DNA of 64,000 bases from Planctomycetota bacterium (GTDB taxonomy: Bacteria > Planctomycetota > B15-G4 > JADJEK01), in NCBI GenBank assembly GCA_044225365.1, contig JBGAIQ010000013.1:64001-128000 (forward strand), in the 5' to 3' direction. Shown here in pieces: positions 14,681 to 26,761 of this stretch (the first letter of the stretch is position 1; each line of letters starts with the position of its first letter). The notes beneath the pieces were generated by a model. That model worked only from the letters and a program-made list of their open reading frames with translations, was not told where the DNA came from and did no database searches. Both the position numbers and the translations under genes were made by a program.

Positions 14681-16378
14681 TCAATGGTCGAGGGTCAAGG
14701 TGTCGACGGATTCGATCGGCTGCGGGCCGAACTTCGTCGTGGTCCCATCGGGCCACGTCACGTCGACCGTGTAGGTCTTGGTCCCGAGAGGCAGTCCGAA
14801 GTGGACCTGTGGCGGATTCGAACTCTGATAACCCCCGCTGGTATAGACCCAGCGCGTTTGCTTCACGCCGCCCGCGTCGACGACGATCTTGCTGCCGATT
14901 CCATGATGGTTCTTCACATCCGGCCTTCGGTCGAGGAGAGCGACGATCGTCCACGGTCCCTTCGCACCGTCGTTCTCGAGGACGCGGATCGGTTCGTTCA
15001 AACTGTTCACGATCATGTCGATGTCGCCGTCGAGGTCGAGGTCGTCGAAGACCGCACTGCGATCGCAACGGGCTTCCTTCAACCAGGGGCCGGCTTCCTC
15101 GGCGCTCACGAGCTCGAAACGCTTGCCGGCGGTGCGGCGGAAGAGCTGCGGCACCTGATCATGCATCCAGCCGCGCGGCTCGGTGATCTCCTTCGGGTAG
15201 ACATGACCATCGAACACGACGATGTCCTCGTCGCCGTCGTGATCGAAGTCGTAGAAGCCGGTCGCCCACTTCAAGTACGGCCGCGAGACGACGCCGAGGC
15301 CCCAGAGCGGGGTTTGATCCGAGAATTGCCGCTTCCCGACGTACACGTGGAGCGTGTTGGTGTCGTTCATGAAGTTCGTCGAGAACACGTCCGCGAGTTG
15401 ATCGCCGTTCACGTCGCCGATCGCGATGCCCATCGTGGCCTGCTCGATACCGTCGGAATTCGTCGCGATCCCGCTCGTGACGCCGAGGTCCTCGAACGAG
15501 CCGTCGGCCTTGCGCATGAACAGGTTGTTCTTGCCCGAGTCGTTGCCGACGAAGATGTCCTGCTTGCCGTCCCCGTCGAAGTCGAGGATCACCGCGCCGA
15601 GGCCGTAACCCGGCTCGACCTTGTCGAACCCGAGTCGTGACGTGGCGTCCTCGAACGTGCCATCGCCGCGATTCACGAACACGCGATCGGGTTGCGCCTT
15701 CAGGCCCATCGGTCCGCCGAACACGCGCGCGGTCATGAACGTGGTCTCGGGCGGCGGGTTCTTCGGGTCGAACTCGATGTAGTTGACGACGTAGAGGTCG
15801 AGGTCGCCGTCCTGGTCGATGTCGCCGCACGCGGTGGCCGTCGTCCAGTCGTTCGCACCCCCGGCGACACCGGCCTGCGCCGTCGCATCCTCGAACTTCC
15901 CGCCGAGATTGTGATACAGCGAATTCTCGCCGAAGGCGCTGACGTAGAGGTCGTCCTTGCCGTCTCCGTCGTAGTCGAGCGCGCACGATCCGAAACCCCA
16001 GCGATCGAACGCGATGCCCGTCCTCGAGGTGATGTCACGGAAGTGAATCGCGGGACGCTTGCCCATGTTGCTGATGTTCTCGTAGAAACGGCATCCCGGG
16101 CCCTTCTTCGGCGAATCGAGTGTGGCGCCGTTGGGGACGAAGAGGTCGTAGTCGCCGTCGCCGTCGAAGTCGAGGAGCGCGAGGCCGCCGCCCTTCACCT
16201 CGAGGATCTGCGTCGAAGGTGTCTTGCCCGATGTCGTCGTGAAGTCGATCCCACTGTTCTTCGTGATGTCGACGAAGTGGAGTCGGCCCATCGCCGGCTT
16301 CTCTGGCTCTGGATGCGAGCAACCGACGAGGGACGCGAGGACGACGAAGGCGAGTCGAACGGAGCGGGAAATGGTCAG
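14681..16378 (-). CDS. CRTAC1/ASPIC-UnbV family FG-GAP repeat lipoprotein
   Basis: Multiple DxDGDGxxDL repeats and C-terminal GGYQSSNPPQVHFGL (ASPIC/UnbV). A lipobox LVGC upstream of the first ATG (16291) implies a CTG start at 16378. Confidence 0.9.
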   Translation of the reverse strand: MTISRSVRLAFVVLASLVGCSHPEPEKPAMGRLHFVDITKNSGIDFTTTSGKTPSTQILEVKGGGLALLDFDGDGDYDLFVPNGATLDSPKKGPGCRFYENISNMGKRPAIHFRDITSRTGIAFDRWGFGSCALDYDGDGKDDLYVSAFGENSLYHNLGGKFEDATAQAGVAGGANDWTTATACGDIDQDGDLDLYVVNYIEFDPKNPPPETTFMTARVFGGPMGLKAQPDRVFVNRGDGTFEDATSRLGFDKVEPGYGLGAVILDFDGDGKQDIFVGNDSGKNNLFMRKADGSFEDLGVTSGIATNSDGIEQATMGIAIGDVNGDQLADVFSTNFMNDTNTLHVYVGKRQFSDQTPLWGLGVVSRPYLKWATGFYDFDHDGDEDIVVFDGHVYPKEITEPRGWMHDQVPQLFRRTAGKRFELVSAEEAGPWLKEARCDRSAVFDDLDLDGDIDMIVNSLNEPIRVLENDGAKGPWTIVALLDRRPDVKNHHGIGSKIVVDAGGVKQTRWVYTSGGYQSSNPPQVHFGLPLGTKTYTVDVTWPDGTTTKFGPQPIESVDTLTLDH

Positions 16379-17295
16379 TCTCCTTCGGGGCGATTACCGG
16401 ACATCGATGGAGCGCCGTGCTTCGCGCGGCCCTTCTTGATCTCTTCCAGCGCGGCCTTCTCGAGATCGAGTTCGCCAAGTCGGTGATACACGCGCGAAAG
16501 GTTGAACCAGCAGTCTTCGCTCCACGCGACGTACTTCGTCGCGTCCTCGAGGAGGATTCGCGCTTCCTTCAGGAGTGCGTCAGACTTCGAGGGATCGAGT
16601 TCGCTGCGCTGCAGCAGCAGCCCGCCGAGGCGCACCTCCGTCTTTCCGAAGTCGGTGCGGTCGGATTGGCGCGGTGCTTTGCCCTGCTTCGCGAGGTTCA
16701 CGAGCGCGTCCTTCGCGAGGCGATTCGAATCGCGCAGATGCTTCTCGGCTTCGTCGAGGTCGCCGCGCTCGAGCGCGATCAGGCCGAGACCGTACTGCGT
16801 ATCGGCTTCATCGAGGCCGAGCTTCGAAGCGGCCTGGAAGGCCGCGGCCGAGGTGTCGAGGTCCCCGAGGTAGTAGCACGTCCACGCGTAGTAGATGAAC
16901 GCGCCCTTCGCGTTGTCGAACACAGGCCCAGCGTCGATCACCCTCTCGAAATCTGGGCGCGCGGCGGCATAGAGCTTCTGCCGGTGATTCGAGAAAGCGC
17001 GGATGTACAGCGCGCGCGGGTTGTTCGGATCCTTCGCGAGGAACTCGTCGCACACCTCGCGGGCACGAGTCGAATTGCCGAGCACGAGCGCCGACATCGC
17101 TTGCTTCAGGACCGGGTCGTCGATCTTCGGCAACTCGCCCCTTTGCGCCGCAAAGCGTTCGAGTGCACTCTCGATGCGGAGGACGCCCGGCGACTTCGCG
17201 ACGTTCGAGTTCTTTGCGTCGCCCGGACGATCGCATGCGAGCGTCAGGCAGGCGACGAGGCACGTCGCAATCGTGGCGCGGAACGAGAGCATCAT
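16375..17295 (-). CDS. TPR-repeat lipoprotein
   Basis: Signal peptide with LTLAC lipobox; TPR motifs (DPNNPRALY, ADTQYGLGLIALERGDLDEAEKHL, WFNLSRVYHRLG). Confidence 0.8.
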   Translation of the reverse strand: MMLSFRATIATCLVACLTLACDRPGDAKNSNVAKSPGVLRIESALERFAAQRGELPKIDDPVLKQAMSALVLGNSTRAREVCDEFLAKDPNNPRALYIRAFSNHRQKLYAAARPDFERVIDAGPVFDNAKGAFIYYAWTCYYLGDLDTSAAAFQAASKLGLDEADTQYGLGLIALERGDLDEAEKHLRDSNRLAKDALVNLAKQGKAPRQSDRTDFGKTEVRLGGLLLQRSELDPSKSDALLKEARILLEDATKYVAWSEDCWFNLSRVYHRLGELDLEKAALEEIKKGRAKHGAPSMSGNRPEGD

Positions 17296-17347
17296 GCGCA
17301 GATCGTAGCGTGCAGGAAGTCGTCCCGGGGCGGCTGTTTTGGGGGCC

Positions 17348-17962
17348 TCAATCGAGGACGCGCGTCCACGCCGCAAGGCGCTCCGCGAGCGCGACGCGCC
17401 CGCGCTGGACTCGCTTGTACGCCGTTTCGACGTCGAGGGAGAGGTCGGTGGCGGCGTCCTTGATCGGCATCTCGCGCAGGTACACGCGCTCGAGGATCTC
17501 GCGTTGATCCTTCGGCAGCGTGGCGAGCGCGAGGCGAAGCGTCGTCGCTTCGGAGCCGCTCACGGCTTTCTCCTCCGGCGACGGAAGCGACGAAGCCACT
17601 TCCGGAGCGCCTTCGGCATCGCTGCTCGAGACTCCCGGGCGAGCGTTTCGTCGCTGCGCATGGCGAGACAGCAAGCGGAATGCGCAGCGCAGCAGATAGG
17701 CGCGAAACGCGATCGGATTCTCGAAGCTGGTGCGGCGCGCCACCTTCACGAATCCAGCGGCCGCGTCCTGAGCGACGTCGCTCGCGCTACGCGTGGGCGT
17801 GAGCATGTGCCCGTAACGGCGGCGGATTCGCTCTTTCAGCGTCGCGATCTCCACGCGGAGCAACTCGTCGAGCAACTGCGGCTCGCCGTTCTGCTGGAAG
17901 CGCGCGAGGAGGCTCGCGACCGGGTCTTCCGCGTTCGATCGTGAATTCGAGGACGATTCCAT
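17348..17962 (-). CDS. ECF sigma-70 factor
   Basis: sigma2 (SASDVAQDA, FRAYL) and sigma4 (LALATLPKDQREILERVYLREMPIKDAATDL...KRVQRGRVAL). Confidence 0.88.
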   Translation of the reverse strand: MESSSNSRSNAEDPVASLLARFQQNGEPQLLDELLRVEIATLKERIRRRYGHMLTPTRSASDVAQDAAAGFVKVARRTSFENPIAFRAYLLRCAFRLLSRHAQRRNARPGVSSSDAEGAPEVASSLPSPEEKAVSGSEATTLRLALATLPKDQREILERVYLREMPIKDAATDLSLDVETAYKRVQRGRVALAERLAAWTRVLD

Positions 17963-18015
17963 GGGTGCCGCAGAATCGGTGTCCAACCCGAGTGAGAGTA
18001 CACCTTCTGGGAGCT

Positions 18016-18258
18016 ATGGCGAACAACCAGAAAATCGCTGACGTCCCGAGCGACGACGATCCACTCGTCCGCTCGCTCCACGATTGGCTGGACCCCGCGA
18101 ACTTCCCTGCGATCGCGTCGAAGGTCGACGCGAAGCTCGACTATCTCGACACGGCGGATCGGGCGCGCTTCACGCGGCTCGTCGCCGAGACCTTGGAACG
18201 AGTCCGCGCAAGGAAAACGAAGGATCTTGGAAGATCCGAGTCCAGCGCCGCCGAGTGA
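18016..18258 (+). CDS. 80-aa protein homologous to the N-terminal pre-kinase domain of the neighbouring Ser/Thr kinases
   Basis: GGGAG SD; DVPSDDDPLVRSLHDWLDPANF...DRARFTRLVAET aligns with kinase DVPDDPLARAIFDWLDPERF...DKERWRRLISES. Confidence 0.75.
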   Translation: MANNQKIADVPSDDDPLVRSLHDWLDPANFPAIASKVDAKLDYLDTADRARFTRLVAETLERVRARKTKDLGRSESSAAE

Positions 18259-18339
18259 GCGCCTTTCTCTCTCCCGACCGGCGCGATTCCCGCGCTGGCC
18301 CGACACCTCGAATCCAACTCGATCAAAGAGAGAACGGTC

Positions 18340-19968
18340 ATGCGCTCCATTCGACTGAACGCCTTCCACATCGCGTCCTGCGGCCTCCTCCTCGGTCTTC
18401 CTGCTGCCCGCGCGGAGCAGTGTTTTGCTCAGTACTTCCCAGAGCCGCTCACTTCACCGTGGGTATCGCCCGCGTCTCACTACGGATCCGCGGTTGCGGC
18501 GTCGGGGACGATGTTCGCGGTCGGCGCGCCCGACGACAACCAAGCCATGGGATCGGTCGTGATCCACGAACTCGCGAATGGGTCGTTCGGCAGTTCGACC
18601 GTGATCCAGCCGCTCTTCGGCATGCCGGGCGACCGCTTCGGCGCGGCTGTCGCGCTCGACGGCGATCGGCTCGTCGTGGGTGCGCCGATGGATAACGCCG
18701 CGGGCGTCGGCACCGGCGCCGGTGCGATCTACGTCTACCATCGCATCGTGAATCAGGGCACGAGCGCATGGATCCAGGACGCCAAGTTCTACGCCCCGGA
18801 TGCCGCGCCGGGCGATCACTTCGGCGCCGTCGTCGCGGCCAGCGGCAACACGATCCTCATCGGCGCCCCCGATCGCGACGGGCTCGCCGTCGATCAGGGT
18901 CGGGCCTATGCGCTCGAGTATTCGGTCAACAGCCTCGTGTGGTCCACGTTCAACCAGACTACTCCGCAGACGAACGAGCACTACGGCAGCGCGCTCTCGA
19001 TCGATGGCAATCTGCTCGCGATCGGCAGCCCGCACTACATCAAGAAGACGCCCTCGACACCCGAGTTCGGACGCGTGACGGTGCTGAGCCGCAGCGCACC
19101 GGGATCCAATTGGCTGAAGGAATCGGAACTCGTCCCGGCAACCGGTGTGGCGGGTCTCCACTTCGGGATCTCGGTCTCCGTGAAGTCGGGTCGAATCCTC
19201 GTCGGTGCTCCCGGGTTCGTGGACTCGTCCGGTTTGGCATCGGGAGCCGGCCTGTTGTTCGAGAAGCAGAACGGCACCTGGACCCAAGTCACCGATCTGA
19301 GTTCGTACGACGCGCTGTTCAACGGCGAGACGCTTCTCGGCACGGCCGTGGTCCTCTTGGAACACGACGTAATCATTGCGAGTCCGACCCGATTGAGCAC
19401 TGGACACCAGGACATCTACGGGCAGTGGTGGGTGCCGACCGGGGTCTCCCTGCCGTTCGGCGACATGCAGGTGAACGACGGCACGACGATCAGCCCCATC
19501 ATCGCGGCCTCGGGATCGTTCGCGATCGCGGGTCGCCCGGCCGCGGCGCCGGGTGAGGTCGACAAGGCCTTCGCGCTCTCGCTCTGCGCCGGCAATTGGT
19601 CGAATCACCCGTGGGCGGCCTCCAAGGGCGTTGCCGGATATCCGCAGCTTCGTGGCGCGGGTCCTCTCGACGACAACCTCGCGCTCGAACTGCGCCTCGA
19701 GAAGGCGAAACCGAACACGTTCGGCATGCTCCTCGTCCACGTTGGCATCGAGGCCGCGCTGCCCTTCCACGGCGGCACCCTCGAGGCGTTCCCTGCCAAC
19801 CTCGCGCTCACGGTCCCGATCGACAATGCGGGCCGGTTCGCGGCGCCCGCGGTTCTTCCCGCGGGTCTCTCCAACGTCTCGTTCGTGATGCAGATGCTGA
19901 TCCCGGACGCGACGGCGAAGGGCGGAGTTGCGCTCTCGACGGGGCTGAAGGCGACGACCGCGCCCTGA
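18340..19968 (+). CDS. Secreted FG-GAP repeat beta-propeller protein with conserved C-terminal domain
   Basis: Signal peptide; repeats FGAAVALDGDRLVVGAP and FGAVVAASGNTILIGAP. Confidence 0.88.
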   Translation: MRSIRLNAFHIASCGLLLGLPAARAEQCFAQYFPEPLTSPWVSPASHYGSAVAASGTMFAVGAPDDNQAMGSVVIHELANGSFGSSTVIQPLFGMPGDRFGAAVALDGDRLVVGAPMDNAAGVGTGAGAIYVYHRIVNQGTSAWIQDAKFYAPDAAPGDHFGAVVAASGNTILIGAPDRDGLAVDQGRAYALEYSVNSLVWSTFNQTTPQTNEHYGSALSIDGNLLAIGSPHYIKKTPSTPEFGRVTVLSRSAPGSNWLKESELVPATGVAGLHFGISVSVKSGRILVGAPGFVDSSGLASGAGLLFEKQNGTWTQVTDLSSYDALFNGETLLGTAVVLLEHDVIIASPTRLSTGHQDIYGQWWVPTGVSLPFGDMQVNDGTTISPIIAASGSFAIAGRPAAAPGEVDKAFALSLCAGNWSNHPWAASKGVAGYPQLRGAGPLDDNLALELRLEKAKPNTFGMLLVHVGIEAALPFHGGTLEAFPANLALTVPIDNAGRFAAPAVLPAGLSNVSFVMQMLIPDATAKGGVALSTGLKATTAP

Positions 19969-19983
19969 TCGGAATTCCATCTT

Positions 19984-20016
19984 GCCCCCGCGCGGACGGC
20001 TGCGCGGGGGCTTCTT
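19984..20016 (+). terminator. Putative intrinsic terminator
   Basis: GCCCCCGCGC-8nt-GCGCGGGGGC stem followed by TTCTT. Confidence 0.6.
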
Positions 20017-20076
20017 CGCTTGCATCGGAGATCGCTACCTCGTGGGGAGGCTTCACGGCAGAATGGGAACGCCGCC

Positions 20077-23000
20077 ATGGAGAGAAACGAACCCGATCGC
20101 GATGTACCGGACGATCCGCTCGCGCGAGCGATCTTCGACTGGCTCGACCCCGAGCGATTCGGATCGATCGAGATCGAGAGAGCGCCCGACAGCCTGATCT
20201 CCGACGACAAGGAGCGTTGGCGTCGTCTCATCTCCGAATCGGGCAAGAGCACGATTCCGCCCATGCCCAAGGCCCCGCCGCCCCCCTACGAGCGAGTGGG
20301 GAACTATCGTCTGCGTGCGCCGATCGGCAGCGGCGGTTTCGGCCACGTCTATCTCGGTGAGGACGAACGCAACGGAAAGCGCGTCGCGGTGAAGTTGCTG
20401 CGTGCCGAGATCGCGATCGATCCGCGCGAGCGCGAGCGATTCCAACGCGAGGCCACCGCCGCACGGCGCGTGAACCATCCCAACTGCGTTCGCGTGCTCG
20501 AAACGGGAGAGATCGAGAACTCTCTCTACACGGTTCTCGAGATCATCGAAGGCGAAGGGCTCGACGAGCATCTGCGGCGCCTGCGCGCGATCGGCCAGAA
20601 GATGACGCAGGAGCGCGCGACCGAGATCGGCATCGAGATCTGCGACGCGCTCGCAGCCGTTCACGCCGAAGGACTCGTCCATCGCGACGTGAAGCCCGCG
20701 AACATAAGGCTCACCCGGGAGGGTCGGGCGGTCCTCGTCGACTTCGGACTCGCGACGGGCGAGGCGCTTGCGGTTCTCACGCGAACGGGCGAATTCATCG
20801 GCTCGCTCCCGTACGCACCGCCCGAGCAGATACGCGACGGAGTCCGCGAAGTCGACGCGCGCGCCGACCTCTATTCGCTGGCGGCTTCGCTCTACGAGTG
20901 CCTGACGGGGCAGACCGTCTTCACCGGCGCGTCGGCCGAGCAACTCGTGTTGTCGATCGTGCAGGACGAGCCGATCTCGCCGCAGCGACTCAATCCGCAG
21001 GTGAGCCGGGAAGCATCGCTCGTGCTCGGCAAGGCGCTCGAGAAGAATGCGGCGCGACGCTACGCAACGGCGAAGGATTTCCAGGCAGACCTCCTCGCTC
21101 TGAAGGCGAACGAGCAGGTGAGCGCGCGCCCACGCAGCCTGATGCGCGGACTCGAACTCACGATTCGCAAGCGTCCGGTCTTCAGCGTCTCCGTCGCACT
21201 CTTCCTCGTCGTCGGGATCGGACTTCCTCTCGCCTTGTTCATCCAGCAGAAGGCGTATGCCGCACGCCTCCGCGGCGAGCGCGACCGAGCGGACTCGCAG
21301 CGTCTCGCCGCGCTCTCGCAGATCGAGATCGATGTCGATCCCGCACGCGCGGGACTCCTGGCGCTCGCGTCGATCGACCGTTCGCCTTCGTTCGAGGGCC
21401 GCAACGCGCTCCTTCGCGCGCTGTCGCAGATGAACGAGAAGAAGACGATTCATGGCCCGTGGCAGCGATTGAACTACGCACTCGCAGTGGGAGACGGCAC
21501 TGCCGCGGTTGCACTCGAACGCAACGGGGATCTCTACTCGATCGATCTGAAGAGCGGCGCGGTGGTGCGTCGCGCCGGGCCCTTCGATCCCAACTGCATG
21601 CTCGCGACGACATCGAACGAAGCGCTCGTCGGCACGCCGACGGGCGTCGTCGAGCGATTCGCGCTCGACGACTTCCGCAAGCTCGAGCCGTGGACGGTGG
21701 GGAAGGCGCCGATCCTCGCGATCGCGGCGACGCACGACGGGCATCGTGCGGTCGTCGCTTGCGGTCGCGCGATCGTGTTCATCGAAGACGGCGTCCAGAA
21801 GACCACGCTCTCGCCGCACGCCAAGCGAATCGGCGACGTCGCGATCTCGCAGAACGGCGACAAGGGATTCAGCGTCGGAGCCGATGGAAAGCTGTTCGAA
21901 TTCGATACGGCGAGCGGCAAGTTCGAGGAACGACTCTCCTTCGGTGAGACCGAACCTCCTCGCCTTTGCCTCTCGCGCGATGATTCTCTGCTCGCTTGCG
22001 GAACCGATACCGACGTCGCGCTCTACGACGTGGCAAAGCATTCGTTGCGGCAGCGAATCGGCGGCCACTACGGACAGAGCACCGTTCTCACGTTTTCGCC
22101 GAAGGCGGACTACCTCGTCGCTTCCACGTCGCGCGAACTTCCCGCGCTGTATCGCGTTTCGGACGGCGAACGCATGATCGCGTATCGCGGCCACACCGAT
22201 CGAGTGAAGAGCATCTCGTTCCTGGGCGATTCGCTGCGCATCCTGACCTGCGGTAGCGAGCTCGATTCCACCCTTCGCATCTACTCGCCGCGTTCCGTAC
22301 TCGACGACGACGTCGTGCTGAATCTCGGCGGCGACGTCTTCTACCTCGAACCGGCAAGGGACTTCTCCGCCTTCATCGCTGGGGAGTATCAAGGGACGAA
22401 GGTGAAGCGAGTCGAACTCGACTCGGACCAGTTGGTCTGGGAATTCGGTGCAGGCGATCCCACGCTCGACCGGGTCCGCTCGATGCGACACGGCGATGTC
22501 TTCATCGTGGTGCGCAACTCCGGCGCGCTCGAGTTCCGACGGATCGCGGACGGGGCCATCGTCGAAACGGTGCAGGGCGTCGCCACGAACATCGAGCCGC
22601 ACTTCGACGAACGGCGCAATCGTCTCCTCGCGAGCATCGACGACAACCTCGTCGCGCTCGACGCGAAGTCTGGCGCAGTCCTCCGTAAGGCCGCGATGGC
22701 GGACGGTGCGAAGGAAAGGATCCACGGCTTCTCGATCGACGCCGATGTCCTCCTCGGCGCCACCGATAGCGGGCGAATCGTCCGGATCGACCCCGAGACG
22801 CTCACGATGGCTGCGATTGCGCAACTCGAGTCGGGCCTTCGCGTGCTCGGAATGGAGATCGATGCCCAGCACGACCGCTTCGTCGCGCAGGTCGTGAACA
22901 TGAACACGTTCGCGTTGCGTCTCGAGTGGTTCGCGATCCACTCCAGCGAATCGCTCGGGCGCACGCCCACTGTCACTTCGCACATCTGGCACACTCACGG

Positions 23001-23406
23001 ATTCGCTGCGGAGGGCAATGAATACGTCTACTCGATCGGCGGATCGCTACACCTGCTCTCGCTGATCGACGGCAGTGAGCGAACGATTGCGAATCCCGAT
23101 ACGGTCAACACTGCGGGGGTATCGGGAGACGATCGCCTCGTCGCCATCGGCACGACGTCGGGATCGATCCGAGTCGTCGATCACGCCACGCTGAAGGCGA
23201 TCGTCGACCTCCCGGCGCACGTTGCGAACGTGAACAAGCTCGTCTTCCACGGCGACGATCACATGCTCTACTCCGCGTCGAGCGATGGAACGGTTCGACG
23301 CTGGCGAATCGATCGCCTGGTCGAGAACGCCCGCGGAGTGTTCCCGAGGGAGCTGTCGCGAGAAGAACGCGAGCACTTCGAGATCGAGGATCACGAGGGC
23401 GAATGA
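20077..23406 (+). CDS. Hanks-type Ser/Thr protein kinase with TM helix and WD40 propellers (copy 1)
   Basis: IGSGGFGHVY, VAVK, HRDVKPANI, DFGLA, YAPPEQ; TM helix VFSVSVALFLVVGIGLPLALF; WD repeats (GHTDRVKSISF, AHVANVNKL...SSDGTVRRW). Confidence 0.95.
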   Translation: MERNEPDRDVPDDPLARAIFDWLDPERFGSIEIERAPDSLISDDKERWRRLISESGKSTIPPMPKAPPPPYERVGNYRLRAPIGSGGFGHVYLGEDERNGKRVAVKLLRAEIAIDPRERERFQREATAARRVNHPNCVRVLETGEIENSLYTVLEIIEGEGLDEHLRRLRAIGQKMTQERATEIGIEICDALAAVHAEGLVHRDVKPANIRLTREGRAVLVDFGLATGEALAVLTRTGEFIGSLPYAPPEQIRDGVREVDARADLYSLAASLYECLTGQTVFTGASAEQLVLSIVQDEPISPQRLNPQVSREASLVLGKALEKNAARRYATAKDFQADLLALKANEQVSARPRSLMRGLELTIRKRPVFSVSVALFLVVGIGLPLALFIQQKAYAARLRGERDRADSQRLAALSQIEIDVDPARAGLLALASIDRSPSFEGRNALLRALSQMNEKKTIHGPWQRLNYALAVGDGTAAVALERNGDLYSIDLKSGAVVRRAGPFDPNCMLATTSNEALVGTPTGVVERFALDDFRKLEPWTVGKAPILAIAATHDGHRAVVACGRAIVFIEDGVQKTTLSPHAKRIGDVAISQNGDKGFSVGADGKLFEFDTASGKFEERLSFGETEPPRLCLSRDDSLLACGTDTDVALYDVAKHSLRQRIGGHYGQSTVLTFSPKADYLVASTSRELPALYRVSDGERMIAYRGHTDRVKSISFLGDSLRILTCGSELDSTLRIYSPRSVLDDDVVLNLGGDVFYLEPARDFSAFIAGEYQGTKVKRVELDSDQLVWEFGAGDPTLDRVRSMRHGDVFIVVRNSGALEFRRIADGAIVETVQGVATNIEPHFDERRNRLLASIDDNLVALDAKSGAVLRKAAMADGAKERIHGFSIDADVLLGATDSGRIVRIDPETLTMAAIAQLESGLRVLGMEIDAQHDRFVAQVVNMNTFALRLEWFAIHSSESLGRTPTVTSHIWHTHGFAAEGNEYVYSIGGSLHLLSLIDGSERTIANPDTVNTAGVSGDDRLVAIGTTSGSIRVVDHATLKAIVDLPAHVANVNKLVFHGDDHMLYSASSDGTVRRWRIDRLVENARGVFPRELSREEREHFEIEDHEGE

Positions 23407-23425
23407 ACACGGCCAGGACGGACTC

Positions 23426-26400
23426 GTGACGCGAAACGAAGACCCGACTCCGGACGATCCGCTCGCACGCGCGATCTTCGACTGGCTCGATCCGGAGCGA
23501 TTCGGCTCGGGAGAGGTCGAGAAGGCACCCGAGTCGCTCGCCTCCGACGACAAGGAGCGGTGGCGTCGCCTGATCTCGGAGTCGGGGAAGAGCACGCTGC
23601 CGCCGCTTCCGAAGGCGAGTCCGCCCCCCTACGACCGTGTCGGTCCGTATCGACTGCTCGCGCCGATCGGGAGCGGAGGTTTTGGGCACGTCTATCTCGG
23701 CGAGGCCGAGGATGGGACGCGGGTCGCGGTGAAGTTGCTGCGGGCCGAGATCGCTCGCGATCCACGCGAGCGCGAGCGATTCCAACGCGAGGCGACGGCG
23801 GCGCGTCGCGTCGCCCATCCAAACTGCGTCCGCGTTCTCGAGACGGGTGAAATCGAGGACGCAAAGTACATCGTGTTCCAGGTGATCGAAGGCGAGAACC
23901 TCGACGAGTACCTGCGGCGCCTTCGCGCCGTCGGACAGAGGATGACGGAGGAACGAGCACTCGAGATCGGCATCGAGATCTGTGATGCGCTCGCCGCGGT
24001 GCACGCCGAAGGCCTCGTCCATCGCGACGTGAAACCGGGGAACATCCGCCTCACGAAGCAAGGACACGCGGTGCTCGTCGACTTCGGGCTCGCCACGGGT
24101 GAATCCCTCGCCGTGCTCACGCGGACGGGCGAGTTCATCGGCTCGTTGCCGTACGCACCGCCCGAGCAGATTCGCGATGGCGTCCGCGAGGTGGGGCCGC
24201 GGGCCGACATCTACTCGCTCGCCGCGACGCTCTACGAATGCCTCACCGGCCAGACCGTCTTCACGGGCGCTTCCGCCGAACAGCTCGTGCTCTCGATCGT
24301 CCAGGACGAACCGATCTCACCGCAGCGCTTGAACCCGGCCGTCTCACGCGAAACGGCGATCGTCTTGTCGAAGGCGCTCGAGAAGAGCGCGGCGCGTCGG
24401 TACGCAGTCGCAGGTGATTTCAAAGCAGACCTGGTCGCGTTGCGATCCGGCGCCCCGATCGTCGCTCGTCCGCGCAGCATCGTCCGCACGCTCGAACTGT
24501 CGATTCGCAAGCGACCGGTCTTCAGCCTCTGCGTCGCGCTGTTCGCCGTCGTGTGCGTCGGCTTGCCGCTCGCGCTGCTCGTTCAACAGCGGTCCTACAA
24601 CGCGAAGCTGCGCGAGGAGCGCGACATCGCGAATGCGCAGCGACTCGCCGCGCTCTCCCGGATCGAGGCTAGCGTCGACCCCGCGCGCTCCACCTTGCTC
24701 GCGCTCGAATCGATCGATCGCGCGCCGACGATGGAGGGGCGCACGGCGTTGTTCGAGGGCTTGTCGTGGCTCACCGAGGAGAAGACGTACTACGGCGACT
24801 GGGATCGTCTCGCGGGTGCGTGCGCGTTCGACGGGGACACCCGATTCGTGGCGCTCAATCGAAAAGGGGAACTGTTCGACATCGATCGCGCATCGGGCCG
24901 CGCGACCATCGTGGCAAGCGGGTTTCCGCCCTTCTCCGTACTCAGCGGTACGCCGAACGCAGTGCGGATCGGACTCCCGAACGGGACGATCCAGAGGTAC
25001 TCGTTGCCCGATCTCGCGAAGCAGGAGACGGTCGAGGTCGGTGCGTCGCCGGTGACGGCGATCGTCGCGATGCCGAGCTGCGAACGCGTTCTCGCGTTGT
25101 GTGGTCGCGAACTCGTCGTGATCGAGAACGGTGCAGTCGTGAGTCGCTTCAAGCCTCACAAGGGGCCGGTCGGTGGAATCGCGATCGCGAACGACGGCCG
25201 CACGCTCTACAGCGCGGGCGACGACGGAGCGATTCGCGCCATCGACGTCGAAACGCAGGCAATCCGCGATCTCGCGACGATCGAGAGCAGCATGCCGCCC
25301 AAGCTTGCGCTTTCTCCCGACGGCAGCCGTCTCGCGTGCGAGACGGAGACCGACGTGCTCGTGCTCGATCCGCACACGGGATCGGCGCTCTTCCGCTGCG
25401 ACGAGGATCATCGCCAGCTCAGCGTCCTCGCGTTCTCGCGCGATTCGGAACGCCTGCTCGCGGCGGAAGTGGTGGGTGTCGTCAACGTCATGCGCACGAG
25501 CGACGGCGCTCGCGTCGCCACGCATCGCGGTCATACGAATCCGGTGAAGAGCGCGGCCTTCCTCTCCGACTCCCACGACGTGTTCACTTGCGGCAGCGAG
25601 ACCGATTCGACTTTGCGCATCTTCGCCGAACGGACCGTGGTCGAGGACATGACGATCGGACGGAGCGGAAAGGACGCCGTTCGCGTCGACGAACTTCCGA
25701 ACGGAGCGGCTCTCCTCGTACCGAGCGAGTCGGACCGCAGGCTCGATCGCATCGCAATCGACGGATCGGGAATCGACTGGAAACTCGAGTTCGCGGCGGA
25801 TTCGACGATCGACGCCATCGCGCTCCGCGAAGGGTGCGAGATCTTCCTCCTGACCCACGATTCCGGAGACTTCGATTCGAGGAGCGCGATCGACGGCCAC
25901 CTCGTTCGGTCGCTACCCAAGATTCCGAAGCTTCTGAAGCCCAGCTTCGATGCGACGGGCCGCGGGATCGTCACCATCGTCGACGGGGCGATCACGATCC
26001 TCGATTCGATCGACGGCTCCGTTCTCGCTCGCGATCGCCTCGAGTCGGCGTCTCCCGGATGCCGCGTGTTCGCCGCCGCAGCGGGCACGATCCTCGCCGG
26101 GACCGAGGACGGGCGAATCCTCCTCCTCGATCCAAAGACGCTCGAGATCGCCCACTCCATCGCGCTCGGTCAAAAGGCAGTGTGCGCCGCGTTCTACGTC
26201 GATCCGAAGCAGGACCGGTTTGCTGCGCGAATCCTCAGCACGACCGGCGTCGGTGTGCGCTACGAGTGGTACTCGTCGAAGGACGGATCACTCCTCGGTC
26301 GCGTTCCCGAAGTGACGAGTCATTACACGACGCCGTTCGGGCTCGCCCGCCAGGGCTCGCTCTTTCTCTACTCCGTCGGCGACACGCTCCACGTCGTGGA

Positions 26401-26761
26401 GCTCGCGACCGGCAACGACCGCACGATCGTCGGCCAGGTCCGGATCACGGCTGCGACGGTCTCGAACGACGGGCGCTTCGCCGCCATCGGCGATATCGAC
26501 GGCGCGATTCGAGTCGTGGAGTTCGAGTCGGGCGAGGGATTCCTCGACATTCCCTCGCGGGACTTTCGCGTCGAGCACCTCGTGTTCGACACGCACGATC
26601 GCAGCGTGGCCCCGTCGAACTCGTTGGTCGTCGTCTATGACGACGGGATCGTGCGGCGGATCGATCTGCTCGCGTTGAAGGAACTCGCCCGCGATCGAAC
26701 GCCGCGAGTCCTCACCTCCGGCGAACGCGACCGATTCCGGGTCGACGCTTCGCGCAATTGA
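23426..26761 (+). CDS. Hanks-type Ser/Thr protein kinase with TM helix and WD40 propellers (copy 2)
   Basis: Same motifs (HRDVKPGNI, DFGLA); GTG start aligns with the copy 1 N-terminus; divergent WD40 region. Confidence 0.93.
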   Translation: MTRNEDPTPDDPLARAIFDWLDPERFGSGEVEKAPESLASDDKERWRRLISESGKSTLPPLPKASPPPYDRVGPYRLLAPIGSGGFGHVYLGEAEDGTRVAVKLLRAEIARDPRERERFQREATAARRVAHPNCVRVLETGEIEDAKYIVFQVIEGENLDEYLRRLRAVGQRMTEERALEIGIEICDALAAVHAEGLVHRDVKPGNIRLTKQGHAVLVDFGLATGESLAVLTRTGEFIGSLPYAPPEQIRDGVREVGPRADIYSLAATLYECLTGQTVFTGASAEQLVLSIVQDEPISPQRLNPAVSRETAIVLSKALEKSAARRYAVAGDFKADLVALRSGAPIVARPRSIVRTLELSIRKRPVFSLCVALFAVVCVGLPLALLVQQRSYNAKLREERDIANAQRLAALSRIEASVDPARSTLLALESIDRAPTMEGRTALFEGLSWLTEEKTYYGDWDRLAGACAFDGDTRFVALNRKGELFDIDRASGRATIVASGFPPFSVLSGTPNAVRIGLPNGTIQRYSLPDLAKQETVEVGASPVTAIVAMPSCERVLALCGRELVVIENGAVVSRFKPHKGPVGGIAIANDGRTLYSAGDDGAIRAIDVETQAIRDLATIESSMPPKLALSPDGSRLACETETDVLVLDPHTGSALFRCDEDHRQLSVLAFSRDSERLLAAEVVGVVNVMRTSDGARVATHRGHTNPVKSAAFLSDSHDVFTCGSETDSTLRIFAERTVVEDMTIGRSGKDAVRVDELPNGAALLVPSESDRRLDRIAIDGSGIDWKLEFAADSTIDAIALREGCEIFLLTHDSGDFDSRSAIDGHLVRSLPKIPKLLKPSFDATGRGIVTIVDGAITILDSIDGSVLARDRLESASPGCRVFAAAAGTILAGTEDGRILLLDPKTLEIAHSIALGQKAVCAAFYVDPKQDRFAARILSTTGVGVRYEWYSSKDGSLLGRVPEVTSHYTTPFGLARQGSLFLYSVGDTLHVVELATGNDRTIVGQVRITAATVSNDGRFAAIGDIDGAIRVVEFESGEGFLDIPSRDFRVEHLVFDTHDRSVAPSNSLVVVYDDGIVRRIDLLALKELARDRTPRVLTSGERDRFRVDASRN

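What the first reader, a model, noticed from the sequence alone, without database searches (positions are those of the whole stretch)
17348..26761. ECF sigma / stand-alone kinase-N-terminal-domain protein / FG-GAP protein / twin Ser-Thr kinase-WD40 module: candidate undescribed signalling system
Seen in sequence: the 80-aa ORF at 18016-18258 starts only ~53 bp from the divergent ECF sigma start. It is a free-standing copy of the ~55-aa segment that precedes the kinase domain in both downstream kinases (DVPSDDDPLVRSLHDWLDPANF...DYLDTADRARFTRLVAET vs DVPDDPLARAIFDWLDPERF...DSLISDDKERWRRLISES). No conventional anti-sigma gene is adjacent. Established: some ECF sigmas are activated by phosphorylation from a co-encoded Hanks kinase (Vibrio EcfP/PknT), and ECF-kinase pairs are abundant in planctomycetes. 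Inference: the N-terminal domain is the sigma-docking module, and the kinase-less copy acts as a decoy, soluble anti-sigma or adaptor that sets a threshold. The two kinases would feed two inputs into one sigma, and the secreted FG-GAP protein would be a ligand partner or output. I know of no description of this stand-alone domain.
Basis: partly seen in the sequence, partly recalled or inferred. Interest (0 to 1): 0.85.

Follow-up and report, generated by a model that had tools for sequence, protein, structure and literature searches.

The report
Sigma-binding mini-domain shared with kinases
A small conserved protein encoded next to an alternative sigma factor is a free copy of the short segment at the front of two neighbouring membrane kinases; it probably grips the sigma factor, which suggests how such kinases hold and control their sigma factors.

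Summary
The 80-aa ORF at 18016-18258 is 41% identical over 59 residues (E 3e-10) to the pre-kinase N-terminus of both tandem Hanks kinases. It starts 53 bp from the ATG of a divergent ECF sigma gene.

It is a real gene, not debris. Three alleles exist, and they differ only in the first ~10 residues plus one D-to-E change. Two checked nucleotide differences in the core are synonymous.

The ~50-aa 'N-dom' is very rare. A scan of 1.84 billion representative proteins gave 8 hits, 7 of them credible. It was not found in 60 relatives, 400 genomes of the phylum, or the GTDB species genomes.

It occurs in three forms: a soluble 80-aa protein, a 107-111-aa tail-anchored protein, and the N-terminus of kinase-TM-WD40/TPR receptor kinases. 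Judged by identical source and contig length, 7 of 8 non-window stand-alone copies and 3 of 4 non-window kinases lie on a contig with an ortholog of this sigma.

A complex model places the small protein on sigma domain 4 (ipSAE 0.67, best control 0.00).

Best reading: a new sigma-docking or anti-sigma-like module of a kinase-linked ECF system. The decoy role, the two-input idea and the FG-GAP role remain untested. I rate it a new variant of a known kind.

The parts
17348..17962 (-). ECF sigma factor, 204 aa. The sigma-2.2 motif is SASDVAQD instead of DAEDxxQE. Domain 4 (residues ~137-204) is the predicted contact surface for N-dom.
   Evidence: Pfam Sigma70_r4_2 and r2, NCBIfam TIGR02937. Orthologs at 57-97% identity; alignment A5. 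Interface.
17963..18015 (.). 53-bp divergent intergenic region between the sigma ATG and the small-ORF ATG. A GGGAG Shine-Dalgarno-like motif sits 4 nt before the small-ORF ATG.
   Evidence: Sequence read. No sigma-70-type promoter found.
18016..18258 (+). Stand-alone N-dom protein, 80 aa, soluble, three predicted helices (16-25, 27-41, 46-74). Conserved motif: DPLxxxxxxWLDPxxF ... DxxR ... E.
   Evidence: homology to the kinase N-termini. (alleles P0002, P0012 and NCBI-annotated P0011). (synonymous differences at 18072 and 18201). (AF2, pLDDT 72.9). (complex model).
18340..19968 (+). Secreted FG-GAP_2 repeat protein, 542 aa, lying between the small gene and the kinases. Role unknown.
   Evidence: Pfam PF14312, E 1.4e-37. 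Synteny kept in a ~92-95% identical strain. Its C-terminal ~130 aa resemble a protein next to a sigma-kinase pair in relative L022.
20077..20241 (+). N-dom of kinase 1 (residues 1-55), followed by a Pro-rich linker.
   Evidence: Low-confidence, unpacked segment in the AF2 model of residues 1-370.
20077..23406 (+). Receptor Hanks kinase 1, 1109 aa. Layout: N-dom, Pkinase (~20308-21072), TM helix (~21178-21243), periplasmic WD40 propellers.
   Evidence: Pfam, P0001, TM located.
23426..23584 (+). N-dom of kinase 2 (residues 1-53).
23426..26761 (+). Receptor Hanks kinase 2, 1111 aa, GTG start, tandem paralog of kinase 1. Identity to kinase 1: N-dom 83%, kinase domain 86%, periplasmic part 33%.
   Evidence: (P0036).
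16375..17295 (-). TPR lipoprotein gene directly downstream of sigma on the minus strand. Its likely start is Met28 of the ORF, ahead of a lipobox LTLAC. It may be co-transcribed with sigma. It is not an anti-sigma by any family search.

Best explanation
The ~50-residue N-dom is a sigma-binding module dedicated to one small clade of ECF sigma factors.

In the two receptor kinases it is a flexibly tethered N-terminal arm. It holds sigma domain 4 next to the cytoplasmic kinase domain. This recruits the sigma for phosphorylation, probably at the Ser-rich sigma-2.2 motif SASD that replaces the acidic DAED. While bound, the sigma is also kept at the membrane and off RNA polymerase.

The 80-aa protein encoded divergently from the sigma is the same module without a kinase. 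It binds the same sigma-4 surface and so acts as a soluble anti-sigma or competitor. It would buffer free sigma and set the threshold for kinase signalling.

In related uncultured organisms the free module carries a C-terminal membrane anchor, which is the architecture of a minimal membrane anti-sigma.

Shown here: homology, conservation, rarity, three architectures, and contig co-location with the sigma clade.
Modelled: the contact with sigma domain 4.
Inferred: phosphorylation of the sigma, the negative sign of the small protein's effect, and competition between the free and kinase-borne copies.
For: - Homology: 41% identity over 59 aa, E 3e-10. Ten columns are invariant across 14 family members.
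- Real gene: annotated in the NCBI record (P0011). Three alleles differ only in residues 1-10 plus one D>E. In a strain whose sigma-side flank (17300-18038) differs at 72 of 739 nt, the 70 core codons encode an identical protein, and the two listed differences (18072 C>T, 18201 A>G) are third-position synonymous (checked).
- Architectures: soluble 79-80 aa; tail-anchored 107-111 aa with a basic stretch then a hydrophobic C-terminus; N-terminus of kinase-TM-WD40 (P0001, P0036, P0007, P0008, P0037) or kinase-TPR (P0006).
- Linkage: the sigma has 8 ortholog clusters at 57-97% identity, then a gap to 43% or less. By identical source and longest-contig length, 7 of 8 non-window stand-alone N-dom proteins and 3 of 4 non-window N-dom kinases share a contig with a sigma ortholog. 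One case was seen directly: a 2468-bp contig spans sigma, the small ORF and the FG-GAP start.
- Complex model of sigma plus small protein: ipSAE 0.70, 0.67 and 0.01, median 0.67, best of 3 controls 0.00. In the tool's calibration 58 of 80 solved complexes and 2 of 110 mismatched pairs reached the mark. Partner pLDDT is at least 42, and the runs agree in at least 3% of contacts. The interface covers sigma residues 137-204 and small-protein residues 12-63, including invariant D15, L17, L25, P27, R51 and E58.
- No solved homolog of N-dom exists by sequence (best E 0.11), so the pass is unlikely to be recall of a near-identical complex.
- N-dom is not packed on the kinase domain (pLDDT 30-43 for residues 1-64).
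- Sigma-2.2 reads SASD, with Ser61 invariant in 13 of 13. Reviews state that loss of DAED and a phospho-Thr at this place activates EcfP (PMC8999054 and PMC13147305, passages read).
Against: - One of the three complex runs scored 0.01. The tool warns that the partner's fold is uncertain and that its calibration holds only roughly with user alignments.
- Only 6 of 10 invariant N-dom residues fall in the 20-residue interface. About 4 would be expected by chance within residues 12-63, so this is not a significant enrichment (my count).
- Contig co-location rests on equal contig lengths, not on seen DNA, apart from the one contig. Gene order and orientation elsewhere are unknown.
- The sigma keeps D62 and D66 of the acidic motif, so it may not be strictly phospho-dependent.
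- No expression data: no RNA run was listed.
- No contig-length match puts a stand-alone copy and an N-dom kinase together outside the window's lineage. The three-part arrangement may therefore be a local peculiarity.
- The sign of regulation is not addressed by any result.
Confidence: 0.5

Rival explanations
1. Positive adaptor or chaperone. The small protein binds the sigma, but it stabilises it or presents it to the kinases, for example through a ternary complex. This would resemble NepR, which is proposed to be needed for PhyR phosphorylation. The small protein would then promote signalling rather than damp it.
For: The same binding evidence applies and the same linkage. The review passage on a NepR-PhyR ternary complex (PMC8999054) shows that small sigma-binding proteins can have positive roles.
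Against: The tail-anchored relatives look like sequestering anti-sigmas. A free module identical in kind to the kinase-borne one should compete with it, not bridge to it.
Confidence: 0.17
2. Kinase-directed module. N-dom mediates kinase dimerisation or autoregulation. The free copy pairs with the kinase N-dom or kinase domain to modulate kinase activity. On this reading the sigma contact in the model is spurious.
For: One of three complex runs failed (0.01). N-dom is poorly ordered on its own in the kinase model. Short helical modules often pair with themselves.
Against: Six tail-anchored N-dom proteins share contigs with sigma orthologs. Three of those contigs are 2428-2598 bp long, leaving too little room for a >3-kb kinase gene on the same contig. 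Controls with unrelated partners scored 0.00.
Confidence: 0.15
3. Non-functional remnant. The ORF is the leftover 5' end of a third kinase gene and is drifting neutrally.
For: Tandem kinase duplication is evident at this locus. In a 65% GC genome, 80-codon ORFs arise easily.
Against: The core of 70 codons is unchanged in a strain whose flanking DNA differs by 5-10%, and the listed differences are synonymous. The ORF is about equally distant (27-35%) from its own kinases and from foreign family members, so it is not a recent copy. Stand-alone forms are an established architecture elsewhere. Only 81 nt separate its stop from the next gene, with no kinase-like remnant.
Confidence: 0.05

Closest known systems
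ECF43-type sigma/Hanks kinase pairs (EcfP-PknT of Vibrio parahaemolyticus; EcfK-PknS of Xanthomonas citri)
   Same: An ECF sigma is encoded beside a transmembrane Hanks kinase. The acidic sigma-2.2 motif is partly replaced by Ser/Thr. PknS also has an N-terminal pre-kinase segment of 81 residues. That segment is predicted helical, was invisible in the crystal, and has no function assigned in the passages I read (PMC13147305; PMC8999054).
   Different: The motif here is SASD, not the QTTA/STTA of ECF43, and two acidic residues are kept. The kinase sensor is WD40. Above all, the pre-kinase segment also exists as a separate co-encoded protein. Casas-Pastor et al. state that kinase-linked ECF groups typically lack a co-encoded anti-sigma (PMC7826278).
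Planctomycete kinase-linked ECF groups (ECF59, 61, 62, 217) and kinase-TM-WD40/TPR receptor kinases
   Same: The same overall gene pairing and kinase architecture (PMC8999054 table; PMC11032199). In 6 of 8 loci fetched around the sigma's best matches (7 in relatives, 1 a paralog in the window's own genome), a kinase sits next to the sigma and carries a ~60-aa or longer pre-kinase segment.
   Different: Those pre-kinase segments show no profile similarity to N-dom (hhalign probability 0.3%). I could not assign this sigma to a numbered ECF group. It scores below the cut-offs of TIGR02989 and TIGR02984.
Minimal anti-sigma factors: soluble NepR (with EcfG/PhyR) and membrane-anchored CnrY (with CnrH)
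   Same: They are very short helical proteins, co-encoded with their ECF sigma, which they sequester. NepR is soluble like the window's protein (PMC8999054). As I recall, with no call made, CnrY is a ~95-aa protein with a short cytosolic N-terminal peptide and one TM helix, like the tail-anchored N-dom proteins.
   Different: There is no sequence or fold match: Pfam none, PDB profile none, best structural Z 5.3 to unrelated helical hairpins. The modelled contact is with sigma domain 4 only. The module is also fused to kinases, which I have not seen described for NepR or CnrY.

Membership tests
ECF (group 4) sigma factor | [quoted passage not shown] | tested here: met
   PF04542, PF08281 and TIGR02937 at 58.8 bits against a cut-off of 42.9.
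Kinase-activated ECF sigma (ECF43 type) | Hanks kinase encoded next to the sigma | tested here: met
   Two Pkinase genes lie within 2.2 kb. Orthologs share contigs with N-dom kinases.
Kinase-activated ECF sigma (ECF43 type) | Loss of the acidic DAED motif in sigma-2.2, with Ser/Thr at the phospho-site | tested here: inconclusive
   SASD replaces DAED and Ser61 is invariant in 13 of 13. However D62 and D66 are kept.
Kinase-activated ECF sigma (ECF43 type) | ECF43 consensus QTTA/STTA | tested here: not met
   The motif here is [SGT][AVS]SD. I therefore do not file it as ECF43.
Kinase-activated ECF sigma (ECF43 type) | Direct phosphorylation of the sigma by the kinase | not testable with these tools
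   Needs an in vitro kinase assay and mass spectrometry.
Anti-sigma factor (functional class) | Co-encoded with its sigma | tested here: met
   In the window it is divergent, 53 bp away. Seven of 8 non-window stand-alone copies share a contig with a sigma ortholog.
Anti-sigma factor (functional class) | Binds the sigma and blocks its use by RNA polymerase | tested here: inconclusive
   The complex model passes (0.67 against 0.00), but this is a prediction. Inhibition was not addressed.
Anti-sigma factor (known sequence families: zf-HC2, RskA, NepR, FecR and others) | Match to a described anti-sigma domain family | tested here: not met
   No Pfam or NCBIfam hit for any of the 14 members, even at E up to 10. 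No PDB sequence match.
Hanks-type receptor Ser/Thr kinase | Pkinase domain with catalytic motifs, one TM helix and an extracytoplasmic sensor | tested here: met
   PF00069, E 4e-41 and 6e-40. VAVK, HRDVKP, DFG and APE-like motifs are visible in the sequence. TM helix and WD40 present.

The most novel reading that the evidence does not exclude
N-dom is the first recognisable member of a class of sigma-4-docking or anti-sigma domains that ECF-linked Hanks kinases carry at their N-termini.

On this reading, the unexplained helical pre-kinase extensions of PknS-type and planctomycete ECF-linked kinases are, in general, the sites where the sigma is held before phosphorylation releases it. This would make these kinases fused 'anti-sigma plus activator' proteins.

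Free or membrane-anchored copies of the domain would form a competing pool. That would give a partner-competition circuit not yet described for ECF sigmas.
Probability: 0.3. Interest if true: 0.75.

Novelty: new variant of a known kind. Interest (0 to 1): 0.62.

Why it matters
ECF sigmas paired with Hanks kinases are thought to need no anti-sigma and to be switched on simply by phosphorylation. How the kinase finds its sigma is unknown, and so is the role of the N-terminal extension of these kinases.

Here nature has split that extension off as a separate protein. In one lineage it is soluble and in others membrane-anchored, and it stays on the same contig as the sigma in nearly every case. 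This gives a concrete, cheap test with an 80-residue protein and a 204-residue sigma. The test asks whether the pre-kinase segment is the sigma-docking site, and whether kinase-linked ECFs have a sequestration layer after all.

The family itself is tiny and confined to uncultured relatives of one lineage. Its direct reach is therefore narrow; its value lies in the principle.

Tried and rejected
- Pfam, NCBIfam, ESM Atlas, Foldseek/PDB, VIA-align wide and a PDB sequence profile gave no family or fold for the small protein. The best structural hit was Z 5.3 to NblA, a generic helical hairpin. A B. cereus 'ECF sigma negative effector' (3fgg) appeared at rank 33 with Z 3.8, which is not meaningful.
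- hhalign found no similarity between N-dom and the pre-kinase N-termini of six other sigma-linked kinases (five in relatives, one the own-genome paralog in L026).
- P0003 (234 aa, four tandem repeats, E 5e-6) was dropped as a low-complexity repeat protein.
- The metagenome-contig scan returned two loci (L019, L020). Both are chance WLDP[ED]RF matches inside an ABC-type permease-like protein and a DUF-like membrane protein. They are not relatives.
- The genome-contig scan found no relative.
- No RNA holder was listed for the locus, so nothing can be said about expression.
- A sigma-70 promoter and terminator scan was uninformative: 0 promoters, and terminators at the shuffle level.
- The bipartite motif CGATTCC-N21/22-TCCAAC occurs only twice in the genome, upstream of the small ORF and upstream of the FG-GAP gene. 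I do not claim it as the sigma's promoter. The pattern was derived from these two sites, and the TCCAAC part is altered at both sites in related strains (17986, 17987 and 18317).
- Supplements were closed. Supplementary Text S2 and Table S2 of PMC7826278 (per-group descriptions of ECF59-62 and ECF217) and the supplements of PMC13147305 (Fig. S3) might mention pre-kinase segments or small conserved neighbours. I could not see them.
- Iyer et al. 2020 was not read. It is cited only through the passages of the two papers above.
- The claim that N-dom is undescribed rests on searches and on the passages read only.

Full report
**1. What is there**

The region holds these genes on the minus strand:
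- an ECF sigma gene at 17348-17962, 204 aa, matching Sigma70_r2, r4_2 and TIGR02937;
- downstream of it, a TPR lipoprotein gene at 16375-17295;
- then an ASPIC/UnbV FG-GAP gene at 14681-16291.

These lie divergently on the plus strand:
- an 80-aa ORF at 18016-18258;
- a secreted FG-GAP_2 protein at 18340-19968;
- two tandem receptor Hanks kinases at 20077-23406 (1109 aa) and 23426-26761 (1111 aa, GTG start).

Each kinase has a short N-terminal segment, a Pro-rich linker, a Pkinase domain with intact catalytic motifs, one TM helix and about 700 periplasmic residues of WD40 propellers. The gap between the sigma ATG and the small-ORF ATG is 53 bp. The ATG start of sigma agrees with the 204-205-aa orthologs.

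**2.

The small ORF aligns to the kinase 1 N-terminus with 24 of 59 identities, E 3e-10. The three segments share 17 invariant columns out of 56.

The two kinases are 51% identical overall, but unevenly so. The N-terminal segment is 83% identical, the kinase domain 86% and the periplasmic part 33%. A six-frame HMM search of the 6.53-Mb genome finds only these three copies.

**3. The small ORF is a gene**

- It is annotated in the NCBI record (P0011).
- Two further alleles exist in other collections (P0002, P0012). They differ from the window's protein only in the first ~10 residues and one D>E change.
- Contigs of three metagenome runs from three studies (X4, X5, X6), out of four laid (X7 gave only short pieces), carry a ~92-95% identical strain. 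That strain has the same order: sigma, small ORF, FG-GAP, kinase.
- One 2468-bp contig spans sigma, the small ORF and the start of the FG-GAP gene.
- On that contig the sigma side (17300-18038) differs at 72 of 739 nt. The 70 core codons of the small ORF nevertheless encode an identical protein (P0012).
- The two differences listed inside the core (18072 C>T, 18201 A>G) are third-position synonymous changes.
- The 81-nt spacer after the ORF has six substitutions and an indel.

A full dN/dS could not be computed, because 261 differences were not displayed.

**4. The domain family**

I call the segment N-dom. Its motif is DPLxxxxxxWLDPxxF ... DxxR ... E.

A profile search of 1.84 billion representative proteins gave 8 hits. 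They are the window's kinase and small protein, two tail-anchored proteins of 107-109 aa, three kinases of 817-1133 aa, and one repeat protein that I discard. Word-based searches added P0009, P0010, P0036 and P0037. Cluster look-ups added P0012-P0014.

N-dom was not found in:
- 60 relatives;
- 400 genomes sampled across the phylum;
- the GTDB species genomes scanned by pattern.

No Pfam, NCBIfam, Atlas, PDB-sequence or fold match exists.

The family therefore has three architectures:
- soluble, 79-80 aa;
- tail-anchored, with N-dom, a basic stretch and a C-terminal hydrophobic helix, so N-dom faces the cytoplasm;
- the N-terminus of kinase-TM-WD40 or kinase-TPR proteins.

The window's copy is about equally distant (27-35%) from all the others. 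It is not a recent copy of its own kinases.

**5. Linkage to one sigma clade**

The sigma has eight ortholog clusters at 57-97% identity, then a gap to 43% or less. The best matches in relatives' genomes are 39% or less.

I compared source and longest-contig length between members of the sigma clusters and N-dom proteins. The results:
- Seven of 8 non-window stand-alone N-dom proteins match a sigma ortholog. The contig lengths are 2468, 2598, 5813, 2428, 19840, 2554 and 10895 bp.
- Three of 4 non-window N-dom kinases match a sigma ortholog, on contigs of 41937, 47573 and 23214 bp.
- The misses are P0002, on a 1005-bp contig, and P0006.
- Ten of 16 non-window sigma-cluster members are matched. 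Five of the six unmatched sit on contigs of 2503 bp or less.

This is inference from equal lengths. The exception is the 2468-bp contig, which was seen directly. Even so, ten exact coincidences are not plausible by chance. On contigs of about 2.5 kb, sharing a contig means the genes are next to each other or nearly so.

**6. Binding model**

A complex prediction of the sigma (13-row alignment) with the small protein (14-row alignment) scored ipSAE 0.70, 0.67 and 0.01. The median is 0.67 and the best of three controls is 0.00. In the tool's calibration, 58 of 80 solved complexes and 2 of 110 mismatched pairs reach this mark. Partner pLDDT is at least 42, and the runs agree in at least 3% of contacts.

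The interface has two sides:
- on the sigma, domain 4: residues 137, 140-142, 160-161, 164, 166-167 and the C-terminal helix 185-204;
- on the small protein, residues 12-63, including invariant D15, L17, L25, P27, R51 and E58.

Six of ten invariant residues in the interface is only slightly above expectation.

Alone, the small protein is predicted as three helices (pLDDT 72.9). In the kinase 1 model (residues 1-370), N-dom is low-confidence (pLDDT 30-43) and does not pack on the kinase domain. This fits a tethered module that folds on a partner. It also echoes the invisible 81 N-terminal residues of PknS (PMC13147305).

**7. The sigma looks phospho-regulated**

Where canonical ECFs have DAEDxxQE, this clade has [S/G/T][A/S/V]SDVAQ[D/E], and Ser61 is invariant in 13 of 13. 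The passages I read state that ECF43 members lack DAED. They also state that the Thr at the matching place is the activating phosphosite of EcfP (PMC8999054; PMC13147305). Two acidic residues remain here and the ECF43 consensus is not met. I therefore call it kinase-linked, but not ECF43.

**8. Context in relatives**

I fetched eight loci around the sigma's best matches: seven in relatives and one a paralog in the window's own genome. Six of them have an adjacent Hanks kinase with a helical pre-kinase segment of about 60 aa or more. Those segments show no profile similarity to N-dom. The gene pairing is therefore the known planctomycete-type ECF-kinase module. The only taxon name seen was on a 42%-identical paralog, labelled 'Planctomycetes bacterium'. 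What is new is the module shared by the kinase and a free protein.

**9. Mechanism**

My best reading (confidence 0.5) is as follows. N-dom docks sigma domain 4. On the kinases it recruits and holds the sigma for phosphorylation. As a free or anchored protein it sequesters the sigma or competes for it. The rivals are a positive adaptor, a kinase-directed regulator and a dead remnant; they are weighed in the Rival explanations section.

'Two inputs into one sigma' fits the conserved cytoplasmic halves and diverged sensor halves but is not shown. Nothing bears on the FG-GAP protein except two points:
- its synteny is kept in the close strain;
- a protein with a similar C-terminal ~130 aa follows a sigma-kinase pair in one relative.

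**10. Novelty**

[quoted passage not shown] In four literature searches and the passages read, I found no description of a pre-kinase sigma-docking domain or of a free copy of one. Supplements were closed and may hold more.

I rate this a new variant of a known kind, with interest 0.62. It is narrow in distribution, but it gives a direct handle on an open point: how ECF-linked kinases engage their sigma.

Noticed in passing
window 17954-17987 and 18284-18318: The bipartite motif CGATTCC-N21/22-TCCAAC occurs exactly twice in the 6.53-Mb genome, counting both strands. One copy ends 28 nt before the small-ORF ATG and the other 21 nt before the FG-GAP ATG. It could be a shared promoter or operator. 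However, the TCCAAC part is changed at both sites in related strains (17986, 17987 and 18317).
   Followed up: partly
window 17954-17979: An inverted repeat, CGATTC-N13-GAATCG, is centred on the sigma start codon in the divergent intergenic region. It may be an operator or it may be chance.
   Followed up: no
L022 8801-10255 and 15757-16476; window 19552-19968: The C-terminal ~130 aa of the window's FG-GAP protein resemble (34-36% identity) the C-termini of two proteins in a relative. One of them lies directly downstream of a kinase-sigma pair. No Pfam family covers this C-terminal domain.
   Followed up: no
window 14681-17295 (-): On its own strand the sigma gene is followed by a TPR lipoprotein gene and an ASPIC/UnbV FG-GAP/VCBS protein gene. 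Secreted FG-GAP-type proteins therefore flank the regulatory genes on both sides and may be the regulon.
   Followed up: no
L026 (G000:C75:70400-87000): The same genome has a second sigma-kinase pair. Its sigma is 30-32% identical to the window's. The kinase is 978 aa and lies directly downstream, with a different ~60-aa pre-kinase helical segment.
   Followed up: partly
window 18016-18045: The first ~10 codons of the small ORF are hypervariable between strains and include an indel, whereas the remaining 70 codons are identical. The N-terminal tail is predicted to be disordered.
   Followed up: partly
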